DNA from: a virus
Reading direction: 5' to 3' (one strand)
Length of the DNA stretch: 64,000 bases
IMG/VR virus record: IMGVR_UViG_3300035208_003217
Positions 1,485 through 33,252 of the stretch are shown piece after piece; position 1 is the first letter of the stretch; each line of letters starts with the position of its first letter. The notes below the pieces were generated by a model, which saw only the letters and a list, made by a program, of their open reading frames with translations, made no database searches and was not told the DNA's origin. The position numbers and the translations under genes are program-made.

Positions 1485-1556
1485 TGCGAGTAGAGAGATT
1501 CGAACTCTCGTATCCTGCTTGGAAGGCAGGCGGACTAACCACTATCCTATACTCGC
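1485..1556 (-). tRNA. tRNA-Gly (anticodon UCC)
   Basis: The reverse complement folds as a cloverleaf. Acceptor GCGAGTA pairs with TACTCGC, the D-stem is GGAT/GTCC, the anticodon stem is CCTGC/GCAGG around loop CUUCCAA, and the T-arm is GAGAG-TTCGAAT-CTCTC. Length 72 nt. Confidence 0.8.
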
Positions 1557-7285: not shown

Positions 7286-8200
7286 TTATTGTTGAATTCC
7301 TCCAGTAGTATTTACTGGAATTGGACCATACATATTATTTGGAACAAAGACTCCATTCCATTTTTCTGCTTTAATTTTAGCAATTTCAAGTTCCATCTTC
7401 TTTAATTCAATATCCCAGTTAACAGCTACTGATTGATTGTATTTCTTAATACCTTCGCCTTCTAAGGCTTTAGCATCAGCATTTAATTGAGCTGCGGCTT
7501 TTTCTCCTTCAGCAACTGTAATGGCAATTTGCTTTTGAGCAGTAGCTTGAACTACACCTTTTTGAGCTTCTTGTTCTGCCATCAATTTTTCCTGTTCTTT
7601 CTGTTTAACCTGTTGGCTACGATTCATAGTTTCTTTAATTTGAGCATCAAAATCATCGGACCAATCGTAGTTAATAATTTGTAGTTCAGTTACTTCAATT
7701 GGATAATTAATTAATTTTTCTTGTAATCTTTTGAATACATTTCCTCTTACTTGATCTTGCATCGTTGCTAATTCAAAAATAGTATAATTACCTATCTCTG
7801 CTTTAAAACTTTCTTTTAATGTTTGACCAATAATATCTCCTATTTTTTGAGTTCCATATTGACTATACATCATTGGTAACTGATCTGGCTTAAATTTATA
7901 GAAGATAGTCATATCAGAACCAATAGTTTGATTGTCTTTTGTAATAGCACCACTACCTCCAACTGGAACATTTTGATCGAGTTGAATTGGTTGAATACTA
8001 ATTTTTTTAACTTTCTGCATAAAAGGAACTTTTGTATGTAATCCTGGTTCAATAATTCTATCACTAACAGCACCCCAATTAAATAATAGTCCCTTTTCGT
8101 TTGCTGATACTTTATAAAATGGATTCAATAAGGCAAGCAAGATAAATGCTATCAACGAAATTACAATCCACTTTACATAATTAATCTCTTTTTGTTCCAT
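7286..8200 (-). CDS. SPFH/band-7 (prohibitin/HflC-like) membrane protein
   Basis: N-terminal transmembrane helix, a band-7 core, and a C-terminal Ala/Gln/Glu-rich coiled coil (QEAQKGVVQATAQKQIAITVAEGEKAAAQL). Confidence 0.65.
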   Translation of the reverse strand: MEQKEINYVKWIVISLIAFILLALLNPFYKVSANEKGLLFNWGAVSDRIIEPGLHTKVPFMQKVKKISIQPIQLDQNVPVGGSGAITKDNQTIGSDMTIFYKFKPDQLPMMYSQYGTQKIGDIIGQTLKESFKAEIGNYTIFELATMQDQVRGNVFKRLQEKLINYPIEVTELQIINYDWSDDFDAQIKETMNRSQQVKQKEQEKLMAEQEAQKGVVQATAQKQIAITVAEGEKAAAQLNADAKALEGEGIKKYNQSVAVNWDIELKKMELEIAKIKAEKWNGVFVPNNMYGPIPVNTTGGIQQ

Positions 8201-9389: not shown

Positions 9390-9403
9390 ATATTTATATT
9401 ATG

Positions 9404-9474
9404 TACGCAGAGATAGAATCGAACTATCATTAGAGCTATATAAGAACCCCATTCTACCATTGAAATATCTGCGT
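9404..9474 (-). tRNA. tRNA, low-GC, anticodon probably UAU (Ile)
   Basis: Acceptor ACGCAGA pairs perfectly with TCTGCGT. T-arm GATAG-TTCGATT-CTATC. Anticodon stem GGGTT/AGCTC uses two G-U pairs around loop CUUAUAU. The D-stem has only 3 bp. The anticodon call is tentative. Confidence 0.45.
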
Positions 9475-9480
9475 ATTATG

Positions 9481-9551
9481 TCAGAGATGGAAGAGTCGAA
9501 CTTCCCCCACGTGGATCCAAGCCACGCATGCTACCGCAACACTTATCTCTG
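9481..9551 (-). tRNA. tRNA-Pro (anticodon UGG)
   Basis: Acceptor CAGAGAT pairs with ATCTCTG. Anticodon stem CGTGG/CCACG around loop CUUGGAU. T-arm GGAAG-TTCGACT-CTTCC. Confidence 0.7.
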
Positions 9552-9554
9552 TTT

Positions 9555-9626
9555 GGTGACAGCGGAGAATTGAACTCCAATATCCAGGATCACAACCTAG
9601 CACTTTATCCTTTAAGCTATTATCAC
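9555..9626 (-). tRNA. tRNA-His (anticodon GUG)
   Basis: Acceptor GTGATAA pairs with CTGTCAC (6 of 7 pairs). D-stem GCTT/AAGT. Anticodon stem CTAGG/CCTGG around loop UUGUGAU. T-arm TGGAG-TTCAATT-CTCCG. Discriminator C. Confidence 0.6.
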
Positions 9627-9628
9627 AG

Positions 9629-9717
9629 CGGAGAATAAAGGATTCGAACCTTTGAGAAGTTTTTCAACTCCTGCTAGTTTTCAAGACTAGTGCAATCATC
9701 CACTCTGCCAATTCTCC
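9629..9717 (-). tRNA. tRNA-Ser (anticodon UGA), long variable arm
   Basis: Acceptor GGAGAAT pairs with ATTCTCC. Anticodon stem CTAGT/ACTAG around loop CUUGAAA. Long extra arm. T-arm AAAGG-TTCGAAT-CCTTT. Length 89 nt. Confidence 0.8.
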
Positions 9718-9718
9718 G

Positions 9719-9801
9719 TACCTCTAATAGGATTCGAACCTATAATGTCTTTCGACGCTGGTTTCTAAAACCAGTATGTCTACCTATTCCATCATAGAGG
9801 C
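9719..9801 (-). tRNA. tRNA-Leu (anticodon UAG), long variable arm
   Basis: Acceptor GCCTCTA pairs with TAGAGGT (G1-U72 wobble). Anticodon stem CTGGT/ACCAG around loop UUUAGAA. 13 nt extra arm. T-loop TTCGAAT. Confidence 0.7.
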
Positions 9802-9807
9802 AAAATG

Positions 9808-9892
9808 TGGAAGCAGTAAGATTCGAACTTACGAAGTCACATGGGACATATGGTCTACAGCCATACGCATTTGACCGCTTTGCTATACTTCC
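9808..9892 (-). tRNA. tRNA-Tyr (anticodon GUA), long variable arm
   Basis: Acceptor GGAAGTA pairs with TGCTTCC. Anticodon stem TATGG/CCATA around loop CUGUAGA. Long extra arm. T-loop TTCGAAT. Confidence 0.75.
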
Positions 9893-9896
9893 ATTG

Positions 9897-9967
9897 AGGA
9901 TCCACTAAGAATCGAACTTAGATACTATGATTAACAGTCATTTGCTTTACCATTAAGCTATAGATCC
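9897..9967 (-). tRNA. tRNA-Asn (anticodon GUU)
   Basis: Acceptor GGATCTA pairs with TGGATCC. D-stem GCTT/AAGC. Anticodon loop CUGUUAA. T-arm CTAAG-TTCGATT-CTTAG. Confidence 0.7.
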
Positions 9968-9972
9968 TTTAG

Positions 9973-10043
9973 CTCCGGAACAAGGATTCGAACCTCAATT
10001 TCTAGGTTCAAAGCCTAGCGTCCTGCCGTTAGACGATTCCGAA
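9973..10043 (-). tRNA. tRNA-Gln (anticodon UUG)
   Basis: Acceptor starts U1-A72 (TTCGGAA pairs with TTCCGGA), as in bacterial tRNA-Gln. Anticodon stem CTAGG/CCTAG around loop CUUUGAA. T-loop TTCGAAT. Confidence 0.7.
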
Positions 10044-10046
10044 AAA

Positions 10047-11351
10047 TTAGCTACTACTTTCTATATCTACATTGCCTTCATCTAGCAATTTAGTTTCATA
10101 TTCTAAAAACTTAAATGATTTTAACTTATATGTATCAAACTGAAAACCAGATTCTTTTCTTAAGACAATACCTTCTTCAGGAACTTTATTTTTACAAATG
10201 AAACAATCTTTTTCAGTGTATTCTCTTTGTAAATATTTAATAAAATCTCCTCTCCATTCTTCATCTCCTATTAATAAATCTTTTCTAAATAATAAATCAA
10301 TTACTTTTCCATAATAGAATAAAGGAACATATTCTAATCCATATCTATCGCAGAATTCTTTGATTTCAAGTGTAGATAAATTATAGACAAATCCAAATTC
10401 ATTTGTCAATGTTATTCTATATATCATTAACTTTTTCTGTTCTTGTTCACAACCATAATCATATCCTTTCTGAATACAACCTCCACTCTTAGTATACCCA
10501 AGACATTCGCCATAAAGAGTATAACCTTGAGGAATTTTATCTTTTAATTCTTCTTTAATTTCTCCCCATAAATCATATTCATAGTAATGTTCTTTATGAG
10601 AGGTTTCGAACTCGTTCTTGACAACTTTGCGAGAACCATAGACGTAGTCATATTCAATATCTTTGATTTTAACTCCAATTGTTTTAAGAGCTTTTTCATA
10701 TAGTTTTAATTTACGCTTTACTAAAATATTTGAAACCCAAAATGATGTTCCGTGAACTTTATAGGTAATAGAGATATAATCTTCAAGATTTATTTTGTCT
10801 ATATTTCTTAGTAAATTTTCAGTATCAACATGTAAATGAACTTGTCCTTCAACTAATCTTGAAATTCTAGGCTTCTTTCCTTGTCTATTTGACAACCCGC
10901 TATTTCTAGTTGGAACAAAATACTTTTTAAGTATCTGTATCTTATTAACCATATCAAATTCCTTATTTAATTCAATAGGAATATCATATCCTATAAATTT
11001 TTCAAAGGTAGAAAAAGGAAATAAAACTCCCATTGATTTTTGTCCGCGAAGTCTGACAGCTCTTACTCTTCCATTATCTTCAAAGAATCCGCACTTTTCA
11101 TCATTAACTATTTCATTTAGATTACTGTGTCTATATGAATTTGTATGTGCTAAAAAAGAACTATTTATTTGCGACTCGAGTGGAAAAAAGATACAAACAT
11201 CTCCAACTTTAGTATCCATACCAACAATAACTTCCTGAAAATCTATAATAGCAATTTGAAGTTTATCTGCATTTGGATGCTTTTTTAATTCTTTAATTTG
11301 AACTACTTTGGCAAGGTAGTTTTTATTAGCGTCTTTTGAGATTGATAACAT
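10047..11351 (-). CDS. RNA ligase (Rnl2-like nucleotidyltransferase) fused to an N-terminal tRNA-binding (Myf/Trbp111-type OB) domain
   Basis: The N-terminus KVVQIKELKKHPNADKLQIAIIDFQEVIVG...VGDVCIFFPLE matches the tRNA_bind OB-fold signature (HPNADKL). The downstream ligase has motif I YKVHGTS (KxHGT, as in T4 Rnl2), motif IV EGIVLRKE and motif V YKLKS. 434 aa. Confidence 0.7.
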   Translation of the reverse strand: MLSISKDANKNYLAKVVQIKELKKHPNADKLQIAIIDFQEVIVGMDTKVGDVCIFFPLESQINSSFLAHTNSYRHSNLNEIVNDEKCGFFEDNGRVRAVRLRGQKSMGVLFPFSTFEKFIGYDIPIELNKEFDMVNKIQILKKYFVPTRNSGLSNRQGKKPRISRLVEGQVHLHVDTENLLRNIDKINLEDYISITYKVHGTSFWVSNILVKRKLKLYEKALKTIGVKIKDIEYDYVYGSRKVVKNEFETSHKEHYYEYDLWGEIKEELKDKIPQGYTLYGECLGYTKSGGCIQKGYDYGCEQEQKKLMIYRITLTNEFGFVYNLSTLEIKEFCDRYGLEYVPLFYYGKVIDLLFRKDLLIGDEEWRGDFIKYLQREYTEKDCFICKNKVPEEGIVLRKESGFQFDTYKLKSFKFLEYETKLLDEGNVDIESSS

Positions 11352-11364
11352 ATAATTTTATTAG

Positions 11365-11437
11365 CCCAACCGCCTAGATTCGAACTAGAAATTCCGGTTT
11401 AGAAAACCAGTGTTTTATCCTATTAGACTACGGTTGG
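11365..11437 (-). tRNA. tRNA-Arg (anticodon UCU)
   Basis: Acceptor CCAACCG pairs perfectly with CGGTTGG. Anticodon stem CTGGT/ACCGG around loop UUUCUAA. T-arm TCTAG-TTCGAAT-CTAGG. Confidence 0.7.
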
Positions 11438-11440
11438 TTT

Positions 11441-12307
11441 TTAAAAATCTATTCTAGGATCCATTGTATTGACATCGCAAACAAATAGACTAAGATTTTT
11501 CCACATTCTAATTACTTTAGGACGGTCATCAAAGACAGTTAAAACATTATACTTATCTTTAATATACTTATTATAGAATTCTTCTTTAACTATTTCATCA
11601 GGTCTTTTGTCTCCTTCATTTCGCATTACTAATTTTGTATATTTGATATGATTTTTTTCAAGCCAGTCTTCTGTTTCTTTTTTACAATCACTATCGCGTC
11701 CACTAAAAATAAATAAATCAAATTGTTCCAAGTGTTTTAATATCTTAATTAGATTAATGTTAGGAATGTCATCCGATACTTTAGTATAATCATAAGGACT
11801 TCGATAGATTCCTTCTGCTAATGTTCCGTCTATATCACAAATTATACAAGGACTTAAATCATAATTGTATTCTTTGTCTTGATACTTTTTTTCTCTTAAA
11901 TACTGATTATACATATTAAGAATAACTCTTTTACCAACAGATTCTTCTCCTCTTTTGCTATCTCTTTCTATACATTCATATAAAGGAGTATCTATAAACT
12001 TAATTTCTACTTTAACATTCTTATAAATAGATGCTATCCTTTTAATTCTATCAATATGTTTTTGAGCAAAGTTTGTATCATCAACTATAATATTATATCC
12101 TTCTGTAAGAGCACGCATTATAATAGCATCACGAACACTTAATACAAAGTTTTCTGTTTTCTGATTATAAACTTTATTAGAAAGCATTGCTCTTAGATCA
12201 TCTTTATTAACTCGTTTCCAAAAATTCGGTTCTTTAGTTACTAATTCTTTAGCAAAGGTACTTTTTCCGGAAGCGGGTAATCCTTGTAAGATTAATATTT
12301 TTTGCAT
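11441..12307 (-). CDS. pnkp: polynucleotide 5'-kinase/3'-phosphatase (T4 Pnkp-like)
   Basis: N-terminal P-loop GLPASGKST (kinase). C-terminal HAD phosphatase motif CDIDGTL. Collinear similarity to T4 Pnk throughout, for example KRPDEIVKEEFYNKYI and FDDRPKVIRMWKNL. Confidence 0.8.
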   Translation of the reverse strand: MQKILILQGLPASGKSTFAKELVTKEPNFWKRVNKDDLRAMLSNKVYNQKTENFVLSVRDAIIMRALTEGYNIIVDDTNFAQKHIDRIKRIASIYKNVKVEIKFIDTPLYECIERDSKRGEESVGKRVILNMYNQYLREKKYQDKEYNYDLSPCIICDIDGTLAEGIYRSPYDYTKVSDDIPNINLIKILKHLEQFDLFIFSGRDSDCKKETEDWLEKNHIKYTKLVMRNEGDKRPDEIVKEEFYNKYIKDKYNVLTVFDDRPKVIRMWKNLSLFVCDVNTMDPRIDF

Positions 12308-12842: not shown

Positions 12843-13985
12843 TTATAATAATGTTCCTTGATTCATAAATGCTAATGTAGGTCCTTCTTTTCTACGTTTA
12901 TCTTGAAGGTCTAAATAGAAACAAATATTAGCAAAGTTTCTTGGTTTGTAAGCCTGAGTTTTTTGTGTAGTCATTACAGGCGTTTGACATTTAGGACATT
13001 TACACTCATCTTCTTTACTAGTTTCCATCATTGATTGAATTCCATATCCAATTTTATTTTTAAGATAGCTATCAATATGTTCTTTAATTTCTAATGGTTT
13101 ATTATTAATATGGTCTTCATCATGAAGATTCTGATCTGATACATATATTCTTCCATACCGAGTTAAAATATTTCCCATTGCTGCTGTTAATGAATATGAG
13201 CTAGAATCAACAGTATACCAAGGATATCTTTCAACAAGTCTTTTAGATGTAACAGCAAATCCATGAGTTTTAATTATTTGTCCCTTCTGAATTCTTGGAT
13301 TTTTAGAATAGTCATAATTCATTATATGACGAAATGAAATATCAAGCCATTCCATTTTTGCTTTTTCAGATGAATCATTACAAGGACTAACTCCAATATA
13401 ATCACATTCATCTAACATTCTATTAAGAACCCAAATAGGTTCACCTTGATGATATACATGAATTGTATCCCAACCTCTTTCTTTTAAGTATTTATAGTTT
13501 TTCCATCCTTGTTCTGCTGCTTCAATAATTTGTTCTTCTGTTGGAACACTTCCTTGTTCTCCTGGAATAACATCTAGATTAACACCTCTCCAGATAATAT
13601 CTTTATATTTATTTAAGTGTTCAAGATATTTATCAATATTAACTAAATGTTTTTTCCAGTTTCCAATTTCATCTACTTTAGCAAGAATTTCTTCCCTTCC
13701 TTTTTGATTTAACAATTGCCACATAGGTTCTCCTCCTATCATATCATATGCTTCTTCTCTTCTTGTTTTTTGTGATAAGTTCCATGAAGTAAATGCTCCA
13801 CTATCACAAATTAAATTAACATTATTTTTTTCAATTAATCCTTTCATTTGCCAAGGTTCGGGATAAGCATATGAGATAAGAATATTTTTGACATTACAGA
13901 TAAGAAGAAATTCTAAGTACTGTTTAGATCCAGTCGCCATAAATAGATTAAAATCTTGTATATCGCTACTAGTTTTTTGAAACAT
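12843..13985 (-). CDS. dpdA: DpdA-like tRNA-guanine transglycosylase family protein (7-deazaguanine DNA transglycosylase)
   Basis: TGT-family fold with a C-terminal zinc motif CKCPKCQ (CxCxxC). It is encoded immediately upstream of queF, folE and queC. Confidence 0.65.
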   Translation of the reverse strand: MFQKTSSDIQDFNLFMATGSKQYLEFLLICNVKNILISYAYPEPWQMKGLIEKNNVNLICDSGAFTSWNLSQKTRREEAYDMIGGEPMWQLLNQKGREEILAKVDEIGNWKKHLVNIDKYLEHLNKYKDIIWRGVNLDVIPGEQGSVPTEEQIIEAAEQGWKNYKYLKERGWDTIHVYHQGEPIWVLNRMLDECDYIGVSPCNDSSEKAKMEWLDISFRHIMNYDYSKNPRIQKGQIIKTHGFAVTSKRLVERYPWYTVDSSSYSLTAAMGNILTRYGRIYVSDQNLHDEDHINNKPLEIKEHIDSYLKNKIGYGIQSMMETSKEDECKCPKCQTPVMTTQKTQAYKPRNFANICFYLDLQDKRRKEGPTLAFMNQGTLL

Positions 13986-13986
13986 A

Positions 13987-14460
13987 TTATTTTAATAATG
14001 AGTGTCTTGCTAATATAGCACTAATTCTATCTTCTTCTTCCTGACATATATCATCTCTTAATAATTCAACAAATGGTGTAAGAGTAATACCTCCTCTTGA
14101 ATTAAATTTTCCAATTACTTGTAAATAGAGAGGTTCAAGTAAATCGAATAAATCCTTTGCTATACGATTAGTAACATCTTCCATGAATTCACCTGATTGT
14201 CTAAATGAAAATAAATATAATTTTAATGATTTAGATTCAACACATTTCTTATCTGGAATATAATTAATTTCAATAGTTGCCATATCCGGTTGATGTGTTT
14301 TTGGACAAAGGCTTGAAAATTCAAAACATTCAAATGGAATGACATAATAATTATCTTGATGTTGATTTTCAAATACTTCAAGTAATTCAGGCTTTGGTTG
14401 ATCAAATACATACTCAGTTTTTTTGGAACCTAACGATTTTAATTTTTTTGTGTCTGACAT
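13987..14460 (-). CDS. queF: NADPH-dependent 7-cyano-7-deazaguanine reductase QueF
   Basis: QueF motif ESKSLKLYL, matching E(S/L)K(S/A)hK(L/Y)(Y/F), and catalytic-Cys region SLCPKTHQPD. Confidence 0.8.
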   Translation of the reverse strand: MSDTKKLKSLGSKKTEYVFDQPKPELLEVFENQHQDNYYVIPFECFEFSSLCPKTHQPDMATIEINYIPDKKCVESKSLKLYLFSFRQSGEFMEDVTNRIAKDLFDLLEPLYLQVIGKFNSRGGITLTPFVELLRDDICQEEEDRISAILARHSLLK

Positions 14461-14464
14461 ACTT

Positions 14465-15034
14465 TTATTTATTTATGTTTATAAGTTGAAAAAATTCATT
14501 TCTTGCTGTTGAATCATTTTCAAATGCTCCTCTAACAATTGAAGTTGTCATTTTACCATCTTTCTTAACTCCACGAATTGATTTACAAGAATGACTTGCT
14601 TTCAGAATTAAAATTATACCCTTCGGTTGTAATTTTCTTTCAATAAATTCTACTACTTGAGCTCCTAATCTTTCTTGAACTTGCATTCGACTCGAATAAA
14701 AATCTATAATACGAGCAATTTTTGATAATCCAATAATTCTTTTATCAGGTATATATCCAAAATAATAATCTCCTTGAAACAGTGCCATATGATGCTCGCA
14801 AAACGAATTAAACTTTCCTTGATCACATATAATTTGATTATAAACTATACCATCATCATCATTATCAAATGCTGTTACTTTTGGCATTTCGTCTTTATCA
14901 TATCCTTTAAATACTTCTAGATACATTTTAGCCATTCTTTGAGGTGTATCTTTAAGTCCAGAACGATTAGGATTCTCTCCTATTTCTTTAAGTAAATCTT
15001 TACAGATTATTTTTAATTTTTTTAAATCTCTCAT
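14465..15034 (-). CDS. folE: GTP cyclohydrolase I FolE
   Basis: GLKDTPQRMAKMY, CEHHMALF and QVQERL are near-identical to FolE signature segments. Confidence 0.85.
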   Translation of the reverse strand: MRDLKKLKIICKDLLKEIGENPNRSGLKDTPQRMAKMYLEVFKGYDKDEMPKVTAFDNDDDGIVYNQIICDQGKFNSFCEHHMALFQGDYYFGYIPDKRIIGLSKIARIIDFYSSRMQVQERLGAQVVEFIERKLQPKGIILILKASHSCKSIRGVKKDGKMTTSIVRGAFENDSTARNEFFQLININK

Positions 15035-15035
15035 A

Positions 15036-15728
15036 TTATTTATTGTAATATTCTAATGGATCTTTTATTTTATTTTTATTGAAGGCTTCTAATCTTTCTT
15101 GACAACTTCCGCATTTTCCACAGGATTGACCTTGATTATTTGGACAATAACAAGTATGTGTATTTTTATAATCAACTCCTAATTTAATTCCTTTCTTAAG
15201 GATAGAAATTTTATTCATCTTTATATAAGGAGCTAAAATCTTTACATTAATATATGTTCCAAACTCTGATGCTTCTCTTATTGCTTCTAAAAAGTCTGAA
15301 CGACAATCTGGATAGATAGCATGATCTCCTCCATGAGCACCATAATATACTTTATCTATTCCATATGATTCGGCAATACCAACTGCTAATGATAGAAGAA
15401 TTCCATTACGAAAAGGAACAACTGTACTTTTCATATTGTTATCTTCATAATGTCCTTGTGGAATTACTTCACTATCTTTATGATTAAGCAATGATGATTT
15501 AAAGTTGGTAAATATATTTTTTAAATCAAGAATTTTATGACTAACTCTTAAATTAAAACATGTATTCATTGCCTTACTTAATTCAACTTTATTGTGTTTA
15601 CTTCCATAATTAAATGAAAGTGCTAATATATTTTGATTACCATACTTTTTAACAATATCATATAGAAGTGTCGTTGAATCAAGTCCTCCTGAAAGTATAA
15701 TGACTGCTTTTTTCTTTTCTGTTTTCAT
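15036..15728 (-). CDS. queC: 7-cyano-7-deazaguanine synthase QueC
   Basis: PP-loop KAVIILSGGLDSTT and C-terminal zinc motif CGKCGSC. Confidence 0.85.
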   Translation of the reverse strand: MKTEKKKAVIILSGGLDSTTLLYDIVKKYGNQNILALSFNYGSKHNKVELSKAMNTCFNLRVSHKILDLKNIFTNFKSSLLNHKDSEVIPQGHYEDNNMKSTVVPFRNGILLSLAVGIAESYGIDKVYYGAHGGDHAIYPDCRSDFLEAIREASEFGTYINVKILAPYIKMNKISILKKGIKLGVDYKNTHTCYCPNNQGQSCGKCGSCQERLEAFNKNKIKDPLEYYNK

Positions 15729-15732
15729 ATAA

Positions 15733-16008
15733 TTATTTTTTACCTTTCTCAGGATGTTTAATATTATGTTTTCCGATAGCTGTTACTTTTTTAGTGCCAG
15801 AAGTTGTTTTGGCAATTCCTGGTTTTATTTTCTCAAAGTTACTCTTTGAATTATTAGATTTATCGTGGTCTTTATGATGAATAAGCTCTCCTGGTTTAGC
15901 ATTCATTAATTTACGACGATAATCAGATGACTTTCCTCCTTTCCATGTTGGATTTTCTTTACCATTTCTGGCCATATTTGGATTTTTCTGTCCTTTTGTG
16001 GGCGCCAT
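15733..16008 (-). CDS. HNH endonuclease (small, free-standing)
   Basis: His-Me finger motif ELIHHKDHDKSNNSKSNFE (HH...D...N...N). 91 aa. It is inserted between queC and queE. Confidence 0.6.
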   Translation of the reverse strand: MAPTKGQKNPNMARNGKENPTWKGGKSSDYRRKLMNAKPGELIHHKDHDKSNNSKSNFEKIKPGIAKTTSGTKKVTAIGKHNIKHPEKGKK

Positions 16009-16009
16009 A

Positions 16010-16312
16010 TTATTTATTATTATATTTTATTAAAAATTCTAATAATTTTCTATGAGTATTAGATAATGAATATATTCTTTCAGGAAGACGATATGGTTTA
16101 TATTTTAAGTATGTTTCTAACATATCACGACTTTCTTTTGAACTTCTCATTATTCTTTCATAAAAATTTCTTTGTGTATATTTTTCTTTTTCACATTTTA
16201 AACAATATAATTTCCATCCTTTATTATTTATATACTCATCAAGTCCTAAATAAAGATGAAAACAAAATAATTGATTTAATTTCATATATTTATACACCTC
16301 TTTTAATATCAT
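16010..16312 (-). CDS. hypothetical protein
   Basis: 100 aa ORF between the HNH gene and queE. Confidence 0.4.
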   Translation of the reverse strand: MILKEVYKYMKLNQLFCFHLYLGLDEYINNKGWKLYCLKCEKEKYTQRNFYERIMRSSKESRDMLETYLKYKPYRLPERIYSLSNTHRKLLEFLIKYNNK

Positions 16313-16949
16313 AAATCATAACATGAAGTCGAGGACTAAAATTATATCCATTTTTTAGACATACATCTAAAAAGTTAGCAATTCCATGATATTGTTTTTC
16401 AGTTGTACCTCCTTCTTTCATTAGATAAATTTTTTCCTTATCAATCTGAACTTGATTTTCAATAAATTTAACTTCATCGAGATCTTCATCTGAACTAATA
16501 ACAAACTTAAAGATTGAATCTTTTTTACTATTTATATATTCTAAAACATCATAATCTAATCTTTTATCTATATCATTTCCAGATGTTCCAAGTTTAGGTG
16601 AACAAGCATAATGGTCAATATATGGGATAATTTTATCAGGCATAATTGTTCCATTAGTTTCAACTGTAATATGATATGAACTATCAAGATTTTCTTGAAA
16701 TAATTCTGTTAATGCTTGTTGTTGTGATAAAGGTTCACCTCCTGTAATAACAATTTTTTTACTATTAAATTTTTTAATTTCTTCGGCAACATCTTTAAGT
16801 TCCATATCTTTTCCGCTCCAATGATATTTAGTATCACAGAATGAACAGTTAAGATTACATCCACTTAATCTTAAGAATATTACATTTGTACCAACATATT
16901 TTCCCTCTCCTTGTATAGCTTGAAAAATTTCGCAAACATGTAATTTCAT
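16290..16949 (-). CDS. queE: 7-carboxy-7-deazaguanine synthase QueE (radical SAM)
   Basis: N-terminus VCEIFQAIQGEGKYVG and radical-SAM cluster motif CNLNCSFC. Confidence 0.85.
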   Translation of the reverse strand: MKLHVCEIFQAIQGEGKYVGTNVIFLRLSGCNLNCSFCDTKYHWSGKDMELKDVAEEIKKFNSKKIVITGGEPLSQQQALTELFQENLDSSYHITVETNGTIMPDKIIPYIDHYACSPKLGTSGNDIDKRLDYDVLEYINSKKDSIFKFVISSDEDLDEVKFIENQVQIDKEKIYLMKEGGTTEKQYHGIANFLDVCLKNGYNFSPRLHVMIYDIKRGV

Positions 16950-16953
16950 ATAT

Positions 16954-17286
16954 TTATCGTTTTTGTGTATAAAAATAACTAATTATATTCTTTATCTTAT
17001 GATTTTTTTGATCTTTTATATCTTGTTGATGAAGTCTTTTCAAAATATTTAAGTCTTGTTCTGATATCAATGCTCCTTGTTCAAGACATTTTGATTGACT
17101 TAATTCATCATAAAATTTTTCAGCGTTACCATCTTTAACAAATTCTGTTAAATTAATATTAAATGGTACATAATTTGGTTTATTTTTTATATTACATTCT
17201 ACAGATGAATTAGAATCTATGAATCTTGCTTGAGGTATTCTAGAAGTACTATCATAATCAAGTATATTATTATAAGTATAATTCAT
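16954..17286 (-). CDS. hypothetical protein
   Basis: 110 aa. Confidence 0.4.
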   Translation of the reverse strand: MNYTYNNILDYDSTSRIPQARFIDSNSSVECNIKNKPNYVPFNINLTEFVKDGNAEKFYDELSQSKCLEQGALISEQDLNILKRLHQQDIKDQKNHKIKNIISYFYTQKR

Positions 17287-17287
17287 A

Positions 17288-17674
17288 TTACTTCAAAACA
17301 TTAACTGTATTTTTTGATACAATCCCATCAACTAATTTGTTAAGAATATCTTTCATATCCTTAACATCAAAACCCATATTTTCAAATGCTTTTGTTAAAA
17401 CTTCAATTTCTTTGGCTTGAATACCATTTTTTTCTCTCATTTGTGATAATTCTTCTACTTTAACTTTTGTTGCTTCTTGAACCTTAACTTTTAATTCATT
17501 TTCAAGAATTCTCTTTTGAGATGCTAGATCTTCATCTTTTTGCTTTAATTTTCTTTCACAATCTTCTATAGTTTGATTTTTCTCTTTAAGATAATTCTCT
17601 GCTAATTTTTTATAATAGTCTCGATCGATTATTATTCTACTGAGCTTTTCTTTTACAATTTTTTTTTCAAACAT
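17288..17674 (-). CDS. hypothetical coiled-coil protein
   Basis: 128 aa, Lys/Glu-rich heptad-like sequence. Confidence 0.4.
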   Translation of the reverse strand: MFEKKIVKEKLSRIIIDRDYYKKLAENYLKEKNQTIEDCERKLKQKDEDLASQKRILENELKVKVQEATKVKVEELSQMREKNGIQAKEIEVLTKAFENMGFDVKDMKDILNKLVDGIVSKNTVNVLK

Positions 17675-17694
17675 ACATTTTATAATTAAATAAA

Positions 17695-18090
17695 TTAAAC
17701 TGTTATACTAGCTTCCGGTGATTCATAAAGTGTAACTTTAATGTTGTTAACTTTATTACCTATTTCTTTCAAAATTAGATTTTTTAAATGTAAGACCAAA
17801 TTTTCGGCAGTAGGATTAAATTCTGTAAGATAAAACAAAAGTCCTGATTCAAACATTACATCAATTAATTTTTCATTTTCTATTTTGTTCTGTATAATAG
17901 TAACATGGTCAAGTTTATTAATAATTGCTTTTAGTTTCTTGAAATCAATAATCATATCATTTTTTAATGAATCTGTTTCTATTTCAACTAATACATCCCA
18001 TCTGTGTCCATGAAGGTTATGACAAGGACCATCATAATTTTCTAACTTGTGAGCCGCATCAAAATGATGCTTTAACTTAAGATTGTACAT
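17695..18090 (-). CDS. queD: 6-carboxy-5,6,7,8-tetrahydropterin synthase QueD
   Basis: FDAAHKL...CHNLHGHRW matches the QueD/PTPS motif CxxxHGH. Confidence 0.8.
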   Translation of the reverse strand: MYNLKLKHHFDAAHKLENYDGPCHNLHGHRWDVLVEIETDSLKNDMIIDFKKLKAIINKLDHVTIIQNKIENEKLIDVMFESGLLFYLTEFNPTAENLVLHLKNLILKEIGNKVNNIKVTLYESPEASITV

Positions 18091-18403
18091 AATATTTCTT
18101 ATAAGTTTCTAAAAATTGTAAATCGTCTTTATTTGGTTTATAATCTAAATCGTTCAAATAATTTTTTGTTTTCTGTAAATATTTTGACCTTACATTTTGC
18201 GAACTAAGTGGTTTTAATCCTTTTCTTCCTTCTGGCTGATGTGTTCTAAAATTATTAAGAGGACAAGCATTATATGGACTATTTGAAACTCTTCCTAGTA
18301 TATGATGCAGGCAATCAGCATCATTTCTTCCGTCTTCCCAATCATAACACCAACCTCCCATATCAAATAAATCCCTAGTTTTTTGTGTAAAATCGTTTTT
18401 CAT
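18077..18403 (-). CDS. putative HNH-like nuclease
   Basis: CLHHILGRVSNSPYNACPLNNFRTH shows an HH...N...N...H arrangement. The call is weak. Confidence 0.35.
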   Translation of the reverse strand: MKNDFTQKTRDLFDMGGWCYDWEDGRNDADCLHHILGRVSNSPYNACPLNNFRTHQPEGRKGLKPLSSQNVRSKYLQKTKNYLNDLDYKPNKDDLQFLETYKKYYVQS

Positions 18404-19070: not shown

Positions 19071-19292
19071 TTATTTTAAATTAATATAATCAAAAACTTT
19101 TTCTATTTTATCAAGTGCAATATCTTCTTTTTGTTTAATAGCCGCACCTGTTATACTGAATTCTTTAGCAACTTCATTCAATGTTTTGTGGCCAATAAAT
19201 CTCTGTGAAAGAATTATTTTTTCATCTATTGTTAGAGTATCAAGTAATTCTAAAAATGCTTTTTGATTATTAGTTAAATTTTTCTTAATCAT
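19071..19292 (-). CDS. small sigma-70 region-4-like HTH protein (putative transcription regulator)
   Basis: LTIDEKIILSQRFIGHKTLNEVAKEFSITGAAIKQKEDIALDKI resembles a sigma-70 region 4 / LuxR-type helix-turn-helix. Confidence 0.5.
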   Translation of the reverse strand: MIKKNLTNNQKAFLELLDTLTIDEKIILSQRFIGHKTLNEVAKEFSITGAAIKQKEDIALDKIEKVFDYINLK

Positions 19293-20035
19293 ATGCTATA
19301 TTTACAGTTATTTGTTCCATTCACTCCATAACTACACCACCGACAATGTATTCCTTGCTTTGGATCAAATTTAGTTTTAGTTTCTATTTCTTTATAAAAG
19401 TTTCTAACATACTCTTCAAAATTTTTCATATCTTCCATTCCATATTCTACTTTCATCTGTTGCGGAATATAATTATCATTATTAACTTTATTTTTATTAT
19501 TAATACAATAAACAACTGGTAATAATTTTCCTTTTTGTTTTAAAACTGCGTAGGTATAAGTCTTGCTTTGAATTGTTTTGATGTCTTCTTCTTTATAATC
19601 AAACGAACTTGTCTTATATTCTGGAATTTTATCTTCATCAACTCTGTCAATAAATCCATAAAGAGGAACAGGAATTCCAGGAATATCTATTTTAAAACAA
19701 AATTCTGTTTCTATAACTTTACCAATAACTGGATTTTTTTTATATTTTTCAAACATTTTTCTAACTAATCCAAATCTTTCTATTTCCTCATCTGACGGTT
19801 TTGGTGACATTAATGATTTTTTTAAATCATTTATAATATCTTCATTTCCATCTCCTTTGTGAAATCTTTCAAGACATTTATGATAAGCTGTTCCTATAAT
19901 GAAGGCTGGATTAGGCAATTGAACTAATTTTAAAATATAAGCATAATACCACTGTAATGGACAAGTTGAATAAGTATTCATTTGTGAGGCAGAAATTGTT
20001 TTTACTTTAGGCATAAAATTCTTCGTAAATACCAA
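19289..20035 (-). CDS. Cas4/RecB-family PD-(D/E)XK exonuclease with Fe-S cysteines
   Basis: N-terminal ISASQMNTYSTCPLQWYY, core GFIDRVDED...EYKTS, and C-terminal CRWCSY...C. The Cys arrangement is typical of Cas4/AddB-type nucleases. Confidence 0.6.
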   Translation of the reverse strand: MVFTKNFMPKVKTISASQMNTYSTCPLQWYYAYILKLVQLPNPAFIIGTAYHKCLERFHKGDGNEDIINDLKKSLMSPKPSDEEIERFGLVRKMFEKYKKNPVIGKVIETEFCFKIDIPGIPVPLYGFIDRVDEDKIPEYKTSSFDYKEEDIKTIQSKTYTYAVLKQKGKLLPVVYCINNKNKVNNDNYIPQQMKVEYGMEDMKNFEEYVRNFYKEIETKTKFDPKQGIHCRWCSYGVNGTNNCKYSI

Positions 20036-20160
20036 TTACTTCTGCTAAGCATAGAAGAAGTGCGGCCATTAATAAGTTATCAAGTATTGATAAAAAGGCA
20101 ATTATTCTAACAGCACTTTTTAGAAAGCTAATTTTTGTATGTTTTGAATACTTTTTCATA

Positions 20161-20877
20161 TTAAGACATTAATTGTATTTTTTTATCATTATATTTTTTT
20201 ATAATAATCTTTTGAACAGAAGTTTCCTTAACTGCCTTAACTGATTCTTCAAGACTTTGAAGTTGTTCAATTGTTTTACAATTATTTATTTTTGTTTCAA
20301 GATCTACTACTTCTTGAGGGATTGTGACTTCAGTGGATTCATCTTCTTTTACTTTAACTTCAATTATATCATCATCAATATTTTGCTCATAAAGTTCTTT
20401 TCCTATTCCAAAATAACGACAAGCATTCTTGAAAGCAGATGTTCTAGCTCCTTTATAAGCATTAGCAATATTTTTGGCAAAGGCACCACCATTTCCAGTT
20501 CTAGAAAATAGTTCTTTATTCAGTTTAATTATTATTTTAATTTCCATAGCAACAGCCCAAGCCTTGCCAATTATTTCTTCTTTTCTTATATCTGATACCA
20601 TTTCCCAATTACCAATGCCTACAACTTCATTTAAACGGTTTATTGCGGCTTGTGCGTTATATCCTTTAAACTTCTTTCCTTCTTCTTCATATTCAATAAT
20701 ATATTTATCTTCAATAGGAGCACTTAATTTTTTATAGAGTTCTAAAAATATATCTTTCTCAGGTTTAGAAGATTTTTTTTGAAGATTAGTAGGAATAGGA
20801 AAAGTTTTTGTCTTAGAATTTTCAACTGTTGTTGAAGTAGTGATACCGCTAGGTCCTAATATTGAATTTTTATCCAT
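20161..20877 (-). CDS. Rad52/Sak-like single-strand annealing protein
   Basis: GYNAQAAINRLNEVVGIGNW and TSAFKNACRYFGIGKELYEQ match the Rad52-family core (cf. TDALKRALRNFGNALGNCLYD). Confidence 0.55.
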   Translation of the reverse strand: MDKNSILGPSGITTSTTVENSKTKTFPIPTNLQKKSSKPEKDIFLELYKKLSAPIEDKYIIEYEEEGKKFKGYNAQAAINRLNEVVGIGNWEMVSDIRKEEIIGKAWAVAMEIKIIIKLNKELFSRTGNGGAFAKNIANAYKGARTSAFKNACRYFGIGKELYEQNIDDDIIEVKVKEDESTEVTIPQEVVDLETKINNCKTIEQLQSLEESVKAVKETSVQKIIIKKYNDKKIQLMS

Positions 20878-21797: not shown

Positions 21798-22295
21798 TTA
21801 ATTATTATTTTTTATAGTAATAAAAGATGTTTTTTGTTCAATTACTCCATCAAGTAATTTACCTTCTACATTTTCATATTTTTCAATGATATCCATAATC
21901 ATTTTTTTGTCTTTCACAATTATGTCATGTTTGAATGCTTTTTGAGCTTCTTTAATATCTATTCCTAATTCTTTTAATGAGTCTGAATGAGCAGAAATAG
22001 ATGCTAAAAGAACTGACGGATCATCTACTTTAAGAGTCTTTCTTACTTGTTTACTAATAGATACATTCTCTAATGTTACATTAGTTTCATTATTCTTTTC
22101 AAGAATAAGAATAACTTCTTCTCTTAATATTCTATCTCTTTCTATTAACTCTTTAAGTTGTTCTGTTTCCTTAATGATTAATTGTTCAAATTCTGCTTTC
22201 TTTTTTAAAATTAAATCCTCAAGTTCTTTCTTTTGATTATTAACTTCAATTAAACTACCAAAAATACTCATATAATTATATTTTAGTTTGTTCAA
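21798..22295 (-). CDS. hypothetical coiled-coil protein
   Basis: 165 aa. Confidence 0.4.
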   Translation of the reverse strand: MNKLKYNYMSIFGSLIEVNNQKKELEDLILKKKAEFEQLIIKETEQLKELIERDRILREEVILILEKNNETNVTLENVSISKQVRKTLKVDDPSVLLASISAHSDSLKELGIDIKEAQKAFKHDIIVKDKKMIMDIIEKYENVEGKLLDGVIEQKTSFITIKNNN

Positions 22296-23670
22296 TTAGT
22301 TTTATTAGAGATTCTCCTTCCTCAATATACTTCATAAAATCAAAGATTCTATCTGAATATCCTCCTAAATGAATAGCTTTATTTGAAGATATATCCTTAG
22401 TTCCATATCCTTGTAAATCAAAACAATAAATAAAGCAATCATTTAATTTTCGATATTCATTGTAATATTTTTGAACTCCATATTTACCCTCTAGCCAACT
22501 TTCATTATCTGATAAGATAATAATCCTATCATATTTAACACCTTTTTCAAGTTGTTTGAGGGCATATTTATAAACTAAAGATGTTTCTGTTCCACCTCCA
22601 TTAGCTTTTTCAATTATCTGATTAGTAATAGTTAATGTGCTATCACCTTTCATTAGTTTAAAATTACTAACTGAACTATTATATTGAATTAAATCTGCAT
22701 CATTAGATTTAAACAAAGTCGCCGCTAAGATAGATGCCTTTTTAACTGGATCGCCTGACATTGAACCAGAAGTATCAATAGCGATAAGAGTTTTACCTTC
22801 AAATTTTGGAACACTGGACAATGAAATATCAAGAGCTTTTGAAATAGATTCAAGCATTGTCTGATTATCTATATTATCATAGGCATTATAAAATCTAAAT
22901 GGTAATTGTTTTGAATTCTTGACAGCATTAATATCTTCAATTATATTACAAGCTTTCTTAATAGTAATATCATCTCCATCTTTAGCAATATTTCTTAAAT
23001 TACGAAGTAAAGCCATATAACCAATCTTATTCTCAGAAACTAAATCTTTCCATACTTTCTTTTTATCTTCTCCAGATGAAAGACGAGCCTCCCATGTTTC
23101 TGTATTTTTAAGATTTCCTTCAATCAAATCTTTCCAGGCTTGTTTTTGGTCTTCTCTAGCAAATTTTGGATTAGGATGTGCGATATTAAATAAATCAACT
23201 AACTTAACTTTCTTTGCTTCTGCTTTATATTTTGCTAATTGATAAGGACTAAATTTTAATAATGAATGTCTAATTCCTTTTTTAATTTGTTTTGGAATAG
23301 GTTTCTTTATTAGAGCCACTAATTCTGTTAAATCATCTGGTCTCTCTGCTGTTTCAATAAGCAATCTACATATTAGACTATCTCCTCTATGCTTTTTTGC
23401 TAATAAACTAATTAAAAGAGTAGAAACTGATCTAAGATGAAATTGACAACGAGCAACAACTACTAATTGTGCAATAAATATATCATCTACTAATCCGCAT
23501 AACTCAGTAATTCTTTTTATTCTATCTTTTTCTGTTTCATAAAATTTATCTTCAAGAAAAGTTGTTAAAACTGCCATTACAAGTTCAGTTTTATAATCAT
23601 GTTTAAATGCTTTGCCACCTGCTAAGTTTGCGACTTTGGTGGTTTCTTTTTTTTGATTAAATTTTGACAT
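22276..23670 (-). CDS. rsr: Ro60 ortholog (Rsr): TROVE domain plus vWA domain
   Basis: N-terminal LAGGKAFKHD...FLEDKFYETEKD fits the Ro60 start pattern (AGG.AF...GGTYY..E). YMALLRNLRNI matches Ro60 LTALLRNLGKM and LPFRFYNAY matches HPFHILIAL. C-terminal vWA MIDAS motif DTSGSM. 464 aa. Confidence 0.7.
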   Translation of the reverse strand: MSKFNQKKETTKVANLAGGKAFKHDYKTELVMAVLTTFLEDKFYETEKDRIKRITELCGLVDDIFIAQLVVVARCQFHLRSVSTLLISLLAKKHRGDSLICRLLIETAERPDDLTELVALIKKPIPKQIKKGIRHSLLKFSPYQLAKYKAEAKKVKLVDLFNIAHPNPKFAREDQKQAWKDLIEGNLKNTETWEARLSSGEDKKKVWKDLVSENKIGYMALLRNLRNIAKDGDDITIKKACNIIEDINAVKNSKQLPFRFYNAYDNIDNQTMLESISKALDISLSSVPKFEGKTLIAIDTSGSMSGDPVKKASILAATLFKSNDADLIQYNSSVSNFKLMKGDSTLTITNQIIEKANGGGTETSLVYKYALKQLEKGVKYDRIIILSDNESWLEGKYGVQKYYNEYRKLNDCFIYCFDLQGYGTKDISSNKAIHLGGYSDRIFDFMKYIEEGESLIKLIEQTKI

Positions 23671-23677
23671 AATGTTT

Positions 23678-23810
23678 TTTGAGGGGAAAGTTTAAAACAG
23701 AAATTTATCGTGCTCTACCACTGAGCTAACTCTCCATAATGGAGAGTGTTGGACTCGAACCAACGACCACGTCGTTAAAAGCGAAGTAACTGTTTTTATC
23801 ACCACCTCTA
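23678..23810 (-). ncRNA. Y-RNA-like ncRNA (YrlA-type) with permuted tRNA-like module
   Basis: Read on the minus strand, the order is T-arm (GTTGG-TTCGAGT-CCAAC), then acceptor 3' strand ACTCTCC, a 5 nt loop, acceptor 5' strand GGAGAGT, then D-arm TAGCTCAGTGGTAGAGC. The outer ends pair (AAAACAG with CTGTTTT, and GAGG(T)GG with CCCCTC with one bulge). It lies immediately 5' of rsr. Confidence 0.5.
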
Positions 23811-32820: not shown

Positions 32821-32825
32821 AATGT

Positions 32826-33251: not shown

Positions 33252-33252
33252 A

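What the first reader, a model, noticed from the sequence alone, without database searches (positions are those of the whole stretch)
12843..18090. Complete 7-deazaguanine (preQ1 level) DNA hypermodification gene set: dpdA, queF, folE, queC, queE, queD
FolE, QueD, QueE and QueC make preQ0. QueF reduces it to preQ1. A DpdA-type transglycosylase inserts 7-deazaguanines into DNA. The presence of queF predicts that 7-aminomethyl-7-deazaguanine (dPreQ1) replaces some G in the virion DNA. This would be an anti-restriction modification. The order is interrupted by an HNH endonuclease and four unknown ORFs. It is known biology, but it sets the context for the rest of the genome.
Basis: established knowledge. 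Interest (0 to 1): 0.55.

Follow-up and report, generated by a model that had tools for sequence, protein, structure and literature searches.

The report
Phage gene set for deazaguanine DNA
An uncultured phage carries all six genes needed to turn GTP into the modified base preQ1 and swap it for guanine in its own DNA; this anti-restriction trick is already known from other phages, so the genome is a new but ordinary example.

The parts
12843..13985 (-). DpdA1-like DNA-guanine transglycosylase, 380 aa
13987..14460 (-). QueF, unimodular NADPH-dependent preQ0 reductase, 157 aa
   Evidence: TIGR03139 scores 152.9 bits against a cutoff of 86.9. B. subtilis QueF 4f8b matches at 2.7e-41. C52, D59, E94 and E75-SKSLKLY are present; Met93 stands at the Bs His96 position.
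14465..15034 (-). FolE, GTP cyclohydrolase I, 189 aa
   Evidence: PF01227 at 1.8e-57; TIGR00063 scores 185.3 bits against 181.6. The CEHH motif is present.
15036..15728 (-). QueC, preQ0 synthase, 230 aa, with no Gat domain
   Evidence: PF06508 at 4e-60; TIGR00364 scores 178.4 bits against 150.3. It has the SGGLDS PP-loop and a C-terminal Cys cluster.
15733..16008 (-). 91-aa ORF with a weak HNH-like motif
   Evidence: HNH_3 scores 17.9 bits, below the 24.8 cutoff and over 18 residues only. PHROG HNH families match at 3e-4. It is conserved at the same position in L004 (72.5%) and L008 (63%).
16010..16312 (-). 100-aa ORF of unknown function
   Evidence: No Pfam or NCBIfam match. It matches the C-terminal part of a 151-aa ORF in L004 at 41.6%. 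It overlaps the end of queE by 23 nt.
16290..16949 (-). QueE, radical-SAM CDG synthase, 219 aa
   Evidence: Radical_SAM at 5.2e-15. The best NCBIfam hits are four QueE models (3.3e-33 to 2e-23), full length but below their cutoffs. The motif C31-x3-C-x2-C is present.
16954..17286 (-). 110-aa ORF of unknown function
   Evidence: No family match. Among the loci compared, a homologue is seen only in L004, at 48%.
17288..17674 (-). 128-aa ORF of unknown function, which by eye looks coiled-coil-rich
   Evidence: No family match. Among the loci compared, a homologue is seen only in L004, at 74%.
17695..18090 (-). QueD, 6-carboxytetrahydropterin synthase, 131 aa
   Evidence: PF01242 at 7.3e-24; TIGR03367 at 2.8e-21. 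It carries the QueD signature C23-HNL-HGH, not the DpdL signature LxxxHRHxF (PMC10516641).
18077..18403 (-). 108-aa ORF that overlaps the queD start; it may belong to the same transcription unit
   Evidence: No family match. It is conserved directly upstream of queD in L004 (83%) and L008 (69%).

Best explanation
This is a self-sufficient phage module for 7-deazaguanine DNA modification that ends at preQ1.

Proposed pathway: FolE, QueD, QueE and QueC convert GTP into the free base preQ0. QueF reduces preQ0 to preQ1 using NADPH. A DpdA1-type transglycosylase then removes guanine from already replicated double-stranded DNA and inserts preQ1, using an Asp general acid/base (D61 in the DSGAF motif) and an Asp nucleophile (probably D260). 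A fraction of dG in the virion DNA would become dPreQ1, which blocks host restriction enzymes whose sites contain G.

Shown here: the identities of the genes, their motifs, the fold, and conserved synteny in relatives.

Inferred from characterised relatives: DNA rather than tRNA as the substrate, preQ1 as the inserted base, and the anti-restriction role.
For: - Five pathway enzymes match curated HMMs and keep their catalytic motifs.
- The QueF family-defining residues listed in PMC5372742 (Cys55, Asp62, Glu97 and the QueF motif) are all present.
- DpdA matches phrog_887 at 6.4e-41.
- DpdA matches 176 phage records, and in every row shown whose annotation gives a function the matching gene is labelled DpdA, queuine tRNA-ribosyltransferase or 7-deazaguanosine-inserting enzyme. 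These include CAjan, the 9g-like Nonagvirus phages, phiSM and Dp-1. PMC6884629 and PMC10516641 report 7-deazaguanines in the DNA of these phages or their type members. Dp-1 carries dPreQ1 at about 1.7% of G.
- BFVD returns 22 hits at E<=0.001; those with informative names are phage queuine tRNA-ribosyltransferases (DpdA) and the rest are unnamed phage proteins. DpdA1-type hits score far better (1e-16) than nt-1 DpdA2 (6e-6).
- D61, D138, H179 and D260 are invariant in 40 homologues. They occur in the same order as bDpdA D95, D130, H181 and D256 (PMC10164549).
- Three divergent relatives (DpdA identity 78%, 57% and 51%) keep the order QueD-QueE-QueC-FolE-QueF-DpdA.
- No DpdM was found by tblastn. 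No PF00551, DUF3109, ArcS or Gat domain appeared in the 50 ORFs scanned.
Against: - DpdA has no direct biochemical evidence and no hit to any curated TGT or DpdA model.
- The fold search ranks tRNA-TGT and DpdA equally.
- Only D61 is mapped by alignment (hhalign probability 1.9%). The other catalytic residues are mapped by order and invariance.
- QueF has Met where B. subtilis has His96.
- The only phage DpdA shown to insert preQ1 in a heterologous test is a DpdA2 (VH7D). phiSM DpdA1 was inactive in E. coli (PMC10516641).
- Four small ORFs inside the cluster have no assigned function.
- About 26 structural-arm ORFs of 90 aa or more, and all ORFs under 90 aa, were not scanned.
Confidence: 0.7

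Rival explanations
1. The module does modify DNA, but the final base is not dPreQ1. One route is dPreQ0, if the His96-to-Met QueF is poorly active. The other is an undescribed preQ1 derivative made by one of the unassigned ORFs in or beside the cluster.
For: - QueF has Met at the His96 position.
- Four ORFs inside the cluster and the 108-aa ORF upstream have no function. Two of them are conserved in relatives.
- There is precedent: DpdM has an unusual fold that was not recognised as a methylase (PMC10516641).
- Relatives insert a GNAT, a PRTase-like gene or a dehydrogenase-like gene into the same cluster, so this lineage does vary its chemistry.
Against: - phiSM QueF has Gln at the same position and complemented E. 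coli delta-queF (PMC10516641).
- All residues used to define the QueF family are present (PMC5372742).
- The unassigned ORFs are 91-128 aa, have no enzyme-like match, and two of them occur only in the closest relative.
- The window lacks the PRTase and GNAT genes seen in relatives.
Confidence: 0.15
2. The module serves tRNA rather than DNA. In this reading, phage-made preQ1 is inserted at G34 of GUN-anticodon tRNAs, either phage-encoded or host. The insertion would be done by the TGT-like protein or by host TGT. This would be part of the phage's large investment in RNA functions.
For: - The window encodes 13 tRNAs, including His-GTG, Tyr-GTA and Asn-GTT.
- An RNA ligase and a PNKP lie next to the cluster here and in relatives.
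- A Ro60 gene with a YrlA-like RNA lies nearby.
- preQ1 is the natural substrate of bacterial TGT.
Against: - There is no match to Pfam or NCBIfam TGT models, nor to any TGT sequence in the PDB, even with a profile.
- All sequence relatives are phage DpdAs.
- 9g DpdA did not complement delta-tgt (PMC6884629).
- Three GUN tRNAs among 13 is what chance predicts (about 2.6).
- The model starts directly with the barrel and shows no N-terminal beta-sheet lid. The lid is present in TGTs and absent in DpdA (PMC10164549).
Confidence: 0.07

Closest known systems
Streptococcus phage Dp-1 preQ1 cluster (QueF, QueC, QueD, QueE, FolE, QueT, DpdA gp07)
   Same: It has the same six enzymes in one co-directional block. 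Its QueF is unimodular and 51% identical, and its DpdA is 35.6% identical over 205 aa. Its DNA was shown to contain dPreQ1 at about 1.7% of G (PMC6884629).
   Different: The gene order differs. Dp-1 also has a QueT transporter, which the window lacks. The window DpdA is 69 aa longer, with a helical insertion at residues 74-114 and a Cys4 motif. There is no detectable nucleotide similarity.
Cellulophaga phage phiSM dPreQ1/mdPreQ1 system (DpdA1, QueF, DpdM)
   Same: It has a DpdA1-type enzyme (29%, 1e-22), the full FolE-to-QueF pathway, and small unknown ORFs interspersed in the cluster.
   Different: phiSM encodes the DpdM methyltransferase (CxxxCxxCC) and a ParB-like protein. The window has no DpdM homologue (tblastn E>9) and no ParB domain in the scanned ORFs.
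Bacterial DpdA of the Dpd restriction-modification system (Salmonella Montevideo, PDB 7ui4)
   Different: There is no detectable sequence similarity. The fourth Zn ligand is Cys rather than His, and the site is not conserved in relatives. No DpdB partner is present. bDpdA inserts preQ0 and excludes preQ1.
Bacterial tRNA-guanine transglycosylase (TGT, PF01702)
   Different: There is no Pfam or NCBIfam match. The model has no N-terminal beta-sheet lid. The expected substrate here is DNA.

Membership tests
Phage 7-deazaguanine DNA modification system (DpdA plus preQ0/preQ1 pathway) | A DpdA-family transglycosylase, the signature protein of the system (PMC10516641) | tested here: met
Phage 7-deazaguanine DNA modification system (DpdA plus preQ0/preQ1 pathway) | Catalytic residues of TGT/DpdA: general acid/base Asp, base-binding Asp and His, and nucleophile Asp | tested here: met
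   D61 (DSGAF), D138, H179 and D260 are invariant in 40 homologues. They occur in the same order as bDpdA D95/D130/H181/D256. Only D61 is placed by alignment; the others are mapped by order and invariance, not by superposition.
Phage 7-deazaguanine DNA modification system (DpdA plus preQ0/preQ1 pathway) | Structural Zn site CxCx2Cx(21-22)H, as in TGT and bDpdA | tested here: inconclusive
   The window protein has C328/C330/C333/C355 with the same spacing as bDpdA, but with Cys in place of His. The first and last Cys are lost in close relatives. Fewer than 15 of the 39 other aligned homologues have residues at 327-334, the Cys-knuckle segment.
Phage 7-deazaguanine DNA modification system (DpdA plus preQ0/preQ1 pathway) | Complete preQ0 pathway: FolE, QueD (CxxxHGH), QueE (CxxxCxxC) and QueC | tested here: met
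   HMM matches and motifs. FolE and QueC pass their NCBIfam equivalog cutoffs. QueE and QueD pass their Pfam cutoffs only.
Phage 7-deazaguanine DNA modification system (DpdA plus preQ0/preQ1 pathway) | 7-deazaguanine nucleosides present in virion DNA | not testable with these tools
   This needs LC-MS/MS of phage DNA. The phage is known only from metagenome contigs.
QueF (NADPH-dependent preQ0 reductase), as opposed to QueF-L | Cys55, Asp62, Glu97 and the QueF NADPH motif E(S/L)K(S/A)hK(L/Y)(Y/F/W) (PMC5372742) | tested here: met
   C52, D59, E94 and E75-SKSLKLY are present. TIGR03139 scores 152.9 bits against a cutoff of 86.9. The His96 position is Met, but it is Gln in the functional phiSM QueF.
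preQ1-derivatising or alternative branches (DpdM, DpdN, DpdL, ArcS, Gat-QueC) | Presence of DUF3109/CxxxCxxCC (DpdM), a PF00551 formyltransferase (DpdN), a QueD paralogue with LxxxHRHxF (DpdL), ArcS, or a Gat domain on QueC | tested here: not met
   tblastn with phiSM DpdM gave E>9. No such Pfam family appeared in the 50 ORFs scanned. The only PTPS-fold gene carries the QueD motif. QueC is 230 aa with no Gat domain. Most structural-arm ORFs beyond 43734 were not scanned.
DpdA2 subfamily (Vibrio phage nt-1 type) | Lacks the conserved His (9g position 196) and is not found by BLAST from DpdA1 (PMC6884629) | tested here: not met
   H179 is invariant. DpdA1 members are found directly by BLAST. The nt-1 protein scores only 5.9e-6 by Foldseek, against 1e-16 for DpdA1-type models.
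DpdA3 subfamily (phiST, CP220, immuto_2-6A; complete G replacement) | Sequence relationship to phiST CGPG_00065-type proteins | tested here: inconclusive
   All seven Cellulophaga records hit by tblastn are phiSM-type (DpdA1) phages; none of them is phiST itself, phi19:2 or phi13:1. No DpdA3 reference sequence could be fetched for a direct comparison.
Bacterial tRNA-guanine transglycosylase (TGT) | [quoted passage not shown] | tested here: not met
   No Pfam or NCBIfam hit at E<=0.01. No TGT in the PDB was found by sequence or by profile. The model begins with barrel strand 13-18 and has no lid.

The most novel reading that the evidence does not exclude
This uncultured phage lineage may elaborate the preQ1-level DNA base beyond the eight known 7-deazaguanines. 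In this window the candidates are the conserved small ORFs (15733-16008 and 18077-18403) or the unusual DpdA, which has a 41-aa helical insertion and a Cys4 site. They could produce a new derivative, or much higher or differently targeted replacement. Relatives carrying a GNAT between folE and queF would make N-acetyl-dPreQ1. A purine-PRTase-like gene in relatives would recycle the released guanine.
Probability: 0.08. Interest if true: 0.6.

Novelty: new member of a known kind. Interest (0 to 1): 0.3.

Why it matters
The finding predicts that this phage's DNA resists many G-dependent restriction enzymes. It also warns that sequencing or cloning its DNA may behave abnormally. It extends the DpdA1 family to a divergent clade that neither the Pfam nor the NCBIfam scans run here detected. 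That clade is represented by dozens of metagenome contigs with 46-79% identical DpdAs, out of 844 homologues at E<=1e-5. Annotation pipelines that depend on those two libraries would therefore not label this DpdA and would undercount such systems. The biology itself is established, so the main value is context for the rest of the genome, plus a pointer to relatives with extra genes in the cluster.

Tried and rejected
- Megablast of the cluster and of 25 kb of the structural arm against 50,697 phage records found nothing. No close cultured relative exists in that collection.
- phmmer and a 40-sequence profile of the DpdA against all PDB sequences found no TGT or DpdA.
- hhalign of that profile against E. 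coli Tgt aligned only the DSGAF/DSGGF motif, at 1.9% probability. Catalytic residues other than D61 could therefore not be mapped by alignment.
- The promoter and terminator scan was uninformative: 66 promoter-like sites against 62.7 in shuffles, and no terminator-like site on the minus strand between 12843 and 18403.
- Rfam at gathering threshold found only tRNAs and no preQ1 riboswitch.
- The supplements of PMC10516641 are not held. DpdA3 and DpdN reference sequences could not be obtained, so the DpdN check rests on the absence of PF00551.
- The idea that His96-to-Met inactivates QueF was set aside, because the validated phiSM QueF has Gln at that position.
- The CxCxxC motif was considered as proof of a conserved Zn site and rejected, because relatives lose it.
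Full report
**1. Observation**

The span 12843-18090 contains ten minus-strand ORFs. They are separated by 1-20 nt or overlap.

| Gene | Coordinates | Key evidence |
|---|---|---|
| QueF | 13987-14460 | TIGR03139, 152.9 bits against a cutoff of 86.9 |
| FolE | 14465-15034 | TIGR00063, 185.3 bits against 181.6; PF01227 at 1.8e-57 |
| QueC | 15036-15728 | TIGR00364, 178.4 bits against 150.3 |
| QueE | 16290-16949 | full-length alignment to four QueE models, best 3.3e-33; the next-best radical-SAM family is NrdG2 at 9e-13 |
| QueD | 17695-18090 | PF01242 at 7.3e-24; TIGR03367 at 2.8e-21 |

The QueE hits are below NCBIfam's strict equivalog cutoffs.

The catalytic motifs are present:
- QueD has C23-HNL-HGH. 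This is the QueD signature, not the LxxxHRHxF of the decarboxylase DpdL (PMC10516641).
- QueE has C31-x3-C-x2-C.
- QueC has the SGGLDS PP-loop, a C-terminal Cys cluster and no Gat domain.
- FolE has CEHH.

Four ORFs interrupt the set, not five:
- 15733-16008 encodes 91 aa. Its HNH_3 match is only 17.9 bits, below the 24.8 cutoff and over 18 residues.
- 16010-16312 encodes 100 aa.
- 16954-17286 encodes 110 aa.
- 17288-17674 encodes 128 aa.

**2. The DpdA candidate**

The 380-aa product of 12843-13985 is the only assignment that standard libraries do not support. It has no Pfam or NCBIfam hit. It has no PDB sequence hit, either alone or as a 40-sequence profile.

Other evidence identifies it clearly:
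- It matches PHROG family 887, the phage "queuine tRNA-ribosyltransferase" family, at 6.4e-41.
- tblastn finds 176 phage records, all below 60% identity. In every listed row whose annotation gives a function, the gene is labelled DpdA, queuine tRNA-ribosyltransferase or 7-deazaguanosine-inserting enzyme.
- Those records include CAjan (3e-8), the 9g-like Nonagvirus phages JenP1 and SE1 (1e-13) and phiSM (1e-15).
- Direct BLASTP gives Dp-1 gp07 at 35.6% over 205 aa (1e-32), Bacillus phage Flasso DpdA at 4e-35, and phiSM DpdA1 at 1e-22.
- An AlphaFold2 model built from 40 homologues is confident, with pLDDT 93.5 and pTM 0.88.
- The three best Foldseek hits against the PDB are TGTs.
- Against BFVD, the 22 hits at E<=0.001 are phage proteins; the named ones are queuine tRNA-ribosyltransferases (DpdA), led by Arthrobacter phage Mufasa8 at 1.1e-16. 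The nt-1 DpdA2 scores only 5.9e-6.

Across 40 homologues the invariant residues include D61-S-G-A (followed by F65), D138, H179 and D260-S. They occur in the same order as bDpdA D95, D130, H181 and D256, the residues shown by mutagenesis and modelling to perform base exchange (PMC10164549). hhalign aligns DSGAF with the DSGGF of E. coli Tgt, but only weakly.

The conserved His, direct BLAST reach to DpdA1 members, and the poor nt-1 score place the protein with DpdA1 rather than DpdA2. Only phiSM-type Cellulophaga phages are hit; phiST itself, phi19:2 and phi13:1 are not among them. This argues against DpdA3, but no DpdA3 sequence could be fetched for a direct test.

The protein has two peculiarities:
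- Residues 74-114 form a helical insertion found only in the nearest relatives.
- The motif C328-x-C330-xx-C333-x21-C355 has exactly the spacing of the bDpdA Zn ligands C368/C370/C373/H395, with Cys replacing His. Relatives lose the first and last Cys. Fewer than 15 of the other 39 aligned homologues have residues at this position. A Zn site is therefore plausible for this protein but is not a feature of the clade.

**3. QueF and the end point of the pathway**

QueF aligns over 126 residues with B. subtilis QueF (4f8b, 2.7e-41). It has every residue used to define the family in PMC5372742. These are the thioimide-forming Cys (C52), Asp (D59), the substrate-anchoring Glu (E94) and the NADPH motif E75-SKSLKLY. 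It is therefore a reductase and not the amidinotransferase QueF-L.

The window protein and relative L008 have Met where B. subtilis has His96. L004, L007, Dp-1 and Flasso keep His. phiSM has Gln at this position, and its QueF complemented E. coli delta-queF (PMC10516641). I treat this substitution as a caveat rather than a defect.

No enzyme known to act beyond or beside preQ1 was found:
- tblastn with phiSM DpdM (gp53, CxxxCxxCC) gives nothing better than E 9.6.
- No formyltransferase (DpdN), DUF3109, ArcS or Gat domain appears in the 50 ORFs scanned with Pfam.

About 26 ORFs of 90 aa or more in the structural arm beyond 43734, and all ORFs under 90 aa, were not scanned.

**4. Relatives**

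The window is 64,000 bases and a 64,979-bp metagenome contig encodes the identical DpdA, so the window is probably most of that contig. Three related lineages keep the order QueD-QueE-QueC-FolE-QueF-DpdA. Their DpdA identities are 78% (L004 and L006), 57% (L008) and 51% (L007). Selection therefore appears to maintain the whole set, including QueF.

The 91-aa HNH-like ORF and the 108-aa ORF upstream of queD are conserved in L004 and L008. The 110-aa and 128-aa ORFs occur only in L004.

Relatives carry genes inside the cluster that the window lacks:
- A purine-PRTase-like gene of about 155 aa. It has a VLVVDDLVDSG PRPP loop and weak matches to Gpt-2 and XGPRT.
- A GNAT acetyltransferase between folE and queF in L007.
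- A 249-aa dehydrogenase-like ORF between queF and dpdA in L008.

None of these is mentioned in PMC10516641.

**5. Mechanism**

The best-supported reading is as follows. GTP is converted to preQ0 by FolE, QueD, QueE and QueC. QueF reduces the free base to preQ1. DpdA then exchanges guanine in replicated DNA for preQ1 by the double-displacement mechanism of TGT and DpdA.

Free-base reduction followed by preQ1 insertion is what was shown for phage QueFs and for VH7D DpdA2. dPreQ1 was measured in the DNA of Dp-1, phiSM and HVTV-1 (PMC6884629, PMC10516641). Protection from restriction enzymes was shown for 9g and CAjan (PMC6884629).

The gene identities, motifs, fold and synteny are shown here. 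The substrate (DNA), the inserted base (preQ1) and the anti-restriction role are inferred from relatives. The extent of replacement cannot be predicted. DpdA1 phages range from 0.1 to 30% of G (PMC10516641).

**6. Rivals**

(a) A different final base. This could be dPreQ0, if the Met variant of QueF is weak, or a new derivative made by an unassigned ORF. I give this about 0.15.

(b) A tRNA role. The window has 13 tRNAs, including His-GTG, Tyr-GTA and Asn-GTT. An RNA ligase and a PNKP lie beside the cluster. A Ro60 gene with a YrlA-like RNA lies nearby. Several points count against this reading:
- Three GUN tRNAs out of 13 is the number chance predicts.
- The protein matches no TGT model.
- All of its sequence relatives are phage DpdAs.
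- The model lacks the N-terminal lid of TGTs (PMC10164549).
- 9g DpdA did not rescue delta-tgt (PMC6884629).

I give this about 0.07. Phage-made preQ1 could still also feed host TGT.

**7. Verdict**

This is a new, divergent member of a known kind of system, found in an uncultured phage that has no close relative among the 50,697 phage records searched. Interest is modest at 0.3. The more novel leads are the accessory genes in the related contigs.

Noticed in passing
window 22276-23670 (-) and 23691-23796 (-): There is a Ro60/TROVE plus vWA protein (PF05731 at 8e-23). A YrlA-like Y RNA candidate lies immediately upstream (RF02553, 40.8 bits, E 1.1e-6, full model length, below the gathering score of 69). 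Together they look like a phage-borne Rsr/Y-RNA module.
   Followed up: partly
window 9403-12307 (-): A tRNA-repair pair is present: an RNA ligase (10047-11351) and a PNKP kinase-phosphatase (11441-12307). They flank tRNA-Arg and abut a ten-tRNA array at 9403-10043. The window has 13 tRNAs in all, including an unusual tRNA-Ile with anticodon TAT.
   Followed up: partly
L004 7299-7763; L006 7266-7763; L007 7151-7633; L008 4437-4898: Related phages carry a purine-phosphoribosyltransferase-like gene of about 155 aa inside the deazaguanine cluster. It resembles Gpt/XGPRT weakly. It is absent from this window. It might recycle the guanine released by DpdA, or make a preQ nucleotide.
   Followed up: partly
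L007 9020-9514: A GNAT acetyltransferase lies between folE and queF in a relative whose DpdA is 51% identical. It is a candidate for an undescribed N-acetyl-dPreQ1 modification, by analogy with the formyltransferase DpdN.
   Followed up: no
L008 7989-8738: A 249-aa Rossmann-type ORF lies between queF and dpdA in another relative. It resembles UDP-sugar dehydrogenases only weakly. Its function is unknown.
   Followed up: partly
window 13987-14460 (-), QueF residue 93: QueF has Met at the position of B. subtilis His96 (FME instead of FHE), and so does relative L008. It also lacks the protective 'backdoor' Cys99 and has no Cys at position 53.
   Followed up: yes
window 35133-36704 (+): The phage encodes a GroEL-like chaperonin (Cpn60_TCP1 at 6.5e-52). 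The gene lies between the terminase and portal genes.
   Followed up: no
window 32122-34236 (+): The large terminase may be split. Only 33253-34236 carries the nuclease domain (Terminase_3C). The preceding ORFs, 32122-32820 and 32826-33251, have no Pfam match.
   Followed up: no
window 1556-2074 (-), 7286-8200 (-), 19289-20877 (-): Three other features were seen. There is a Fic/DOC domain protein. There is an SPFH/Band 7 protein. There is a recombination pair made of a Rad52-like annealase and a PD-(D/E)XK nuclease. No DNA polymerase was seen in any scanned ORF.
   Followed up: no
P0004: The 78%-identical DpdA on a 63.9-kb contig is deposited at NCBI under a 'Candidatus Pacearchaeota archaeon' MAG. 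Its gene content is that of a tailed phage, so it is probably a mis-binned phage contig.
   Followed up: no
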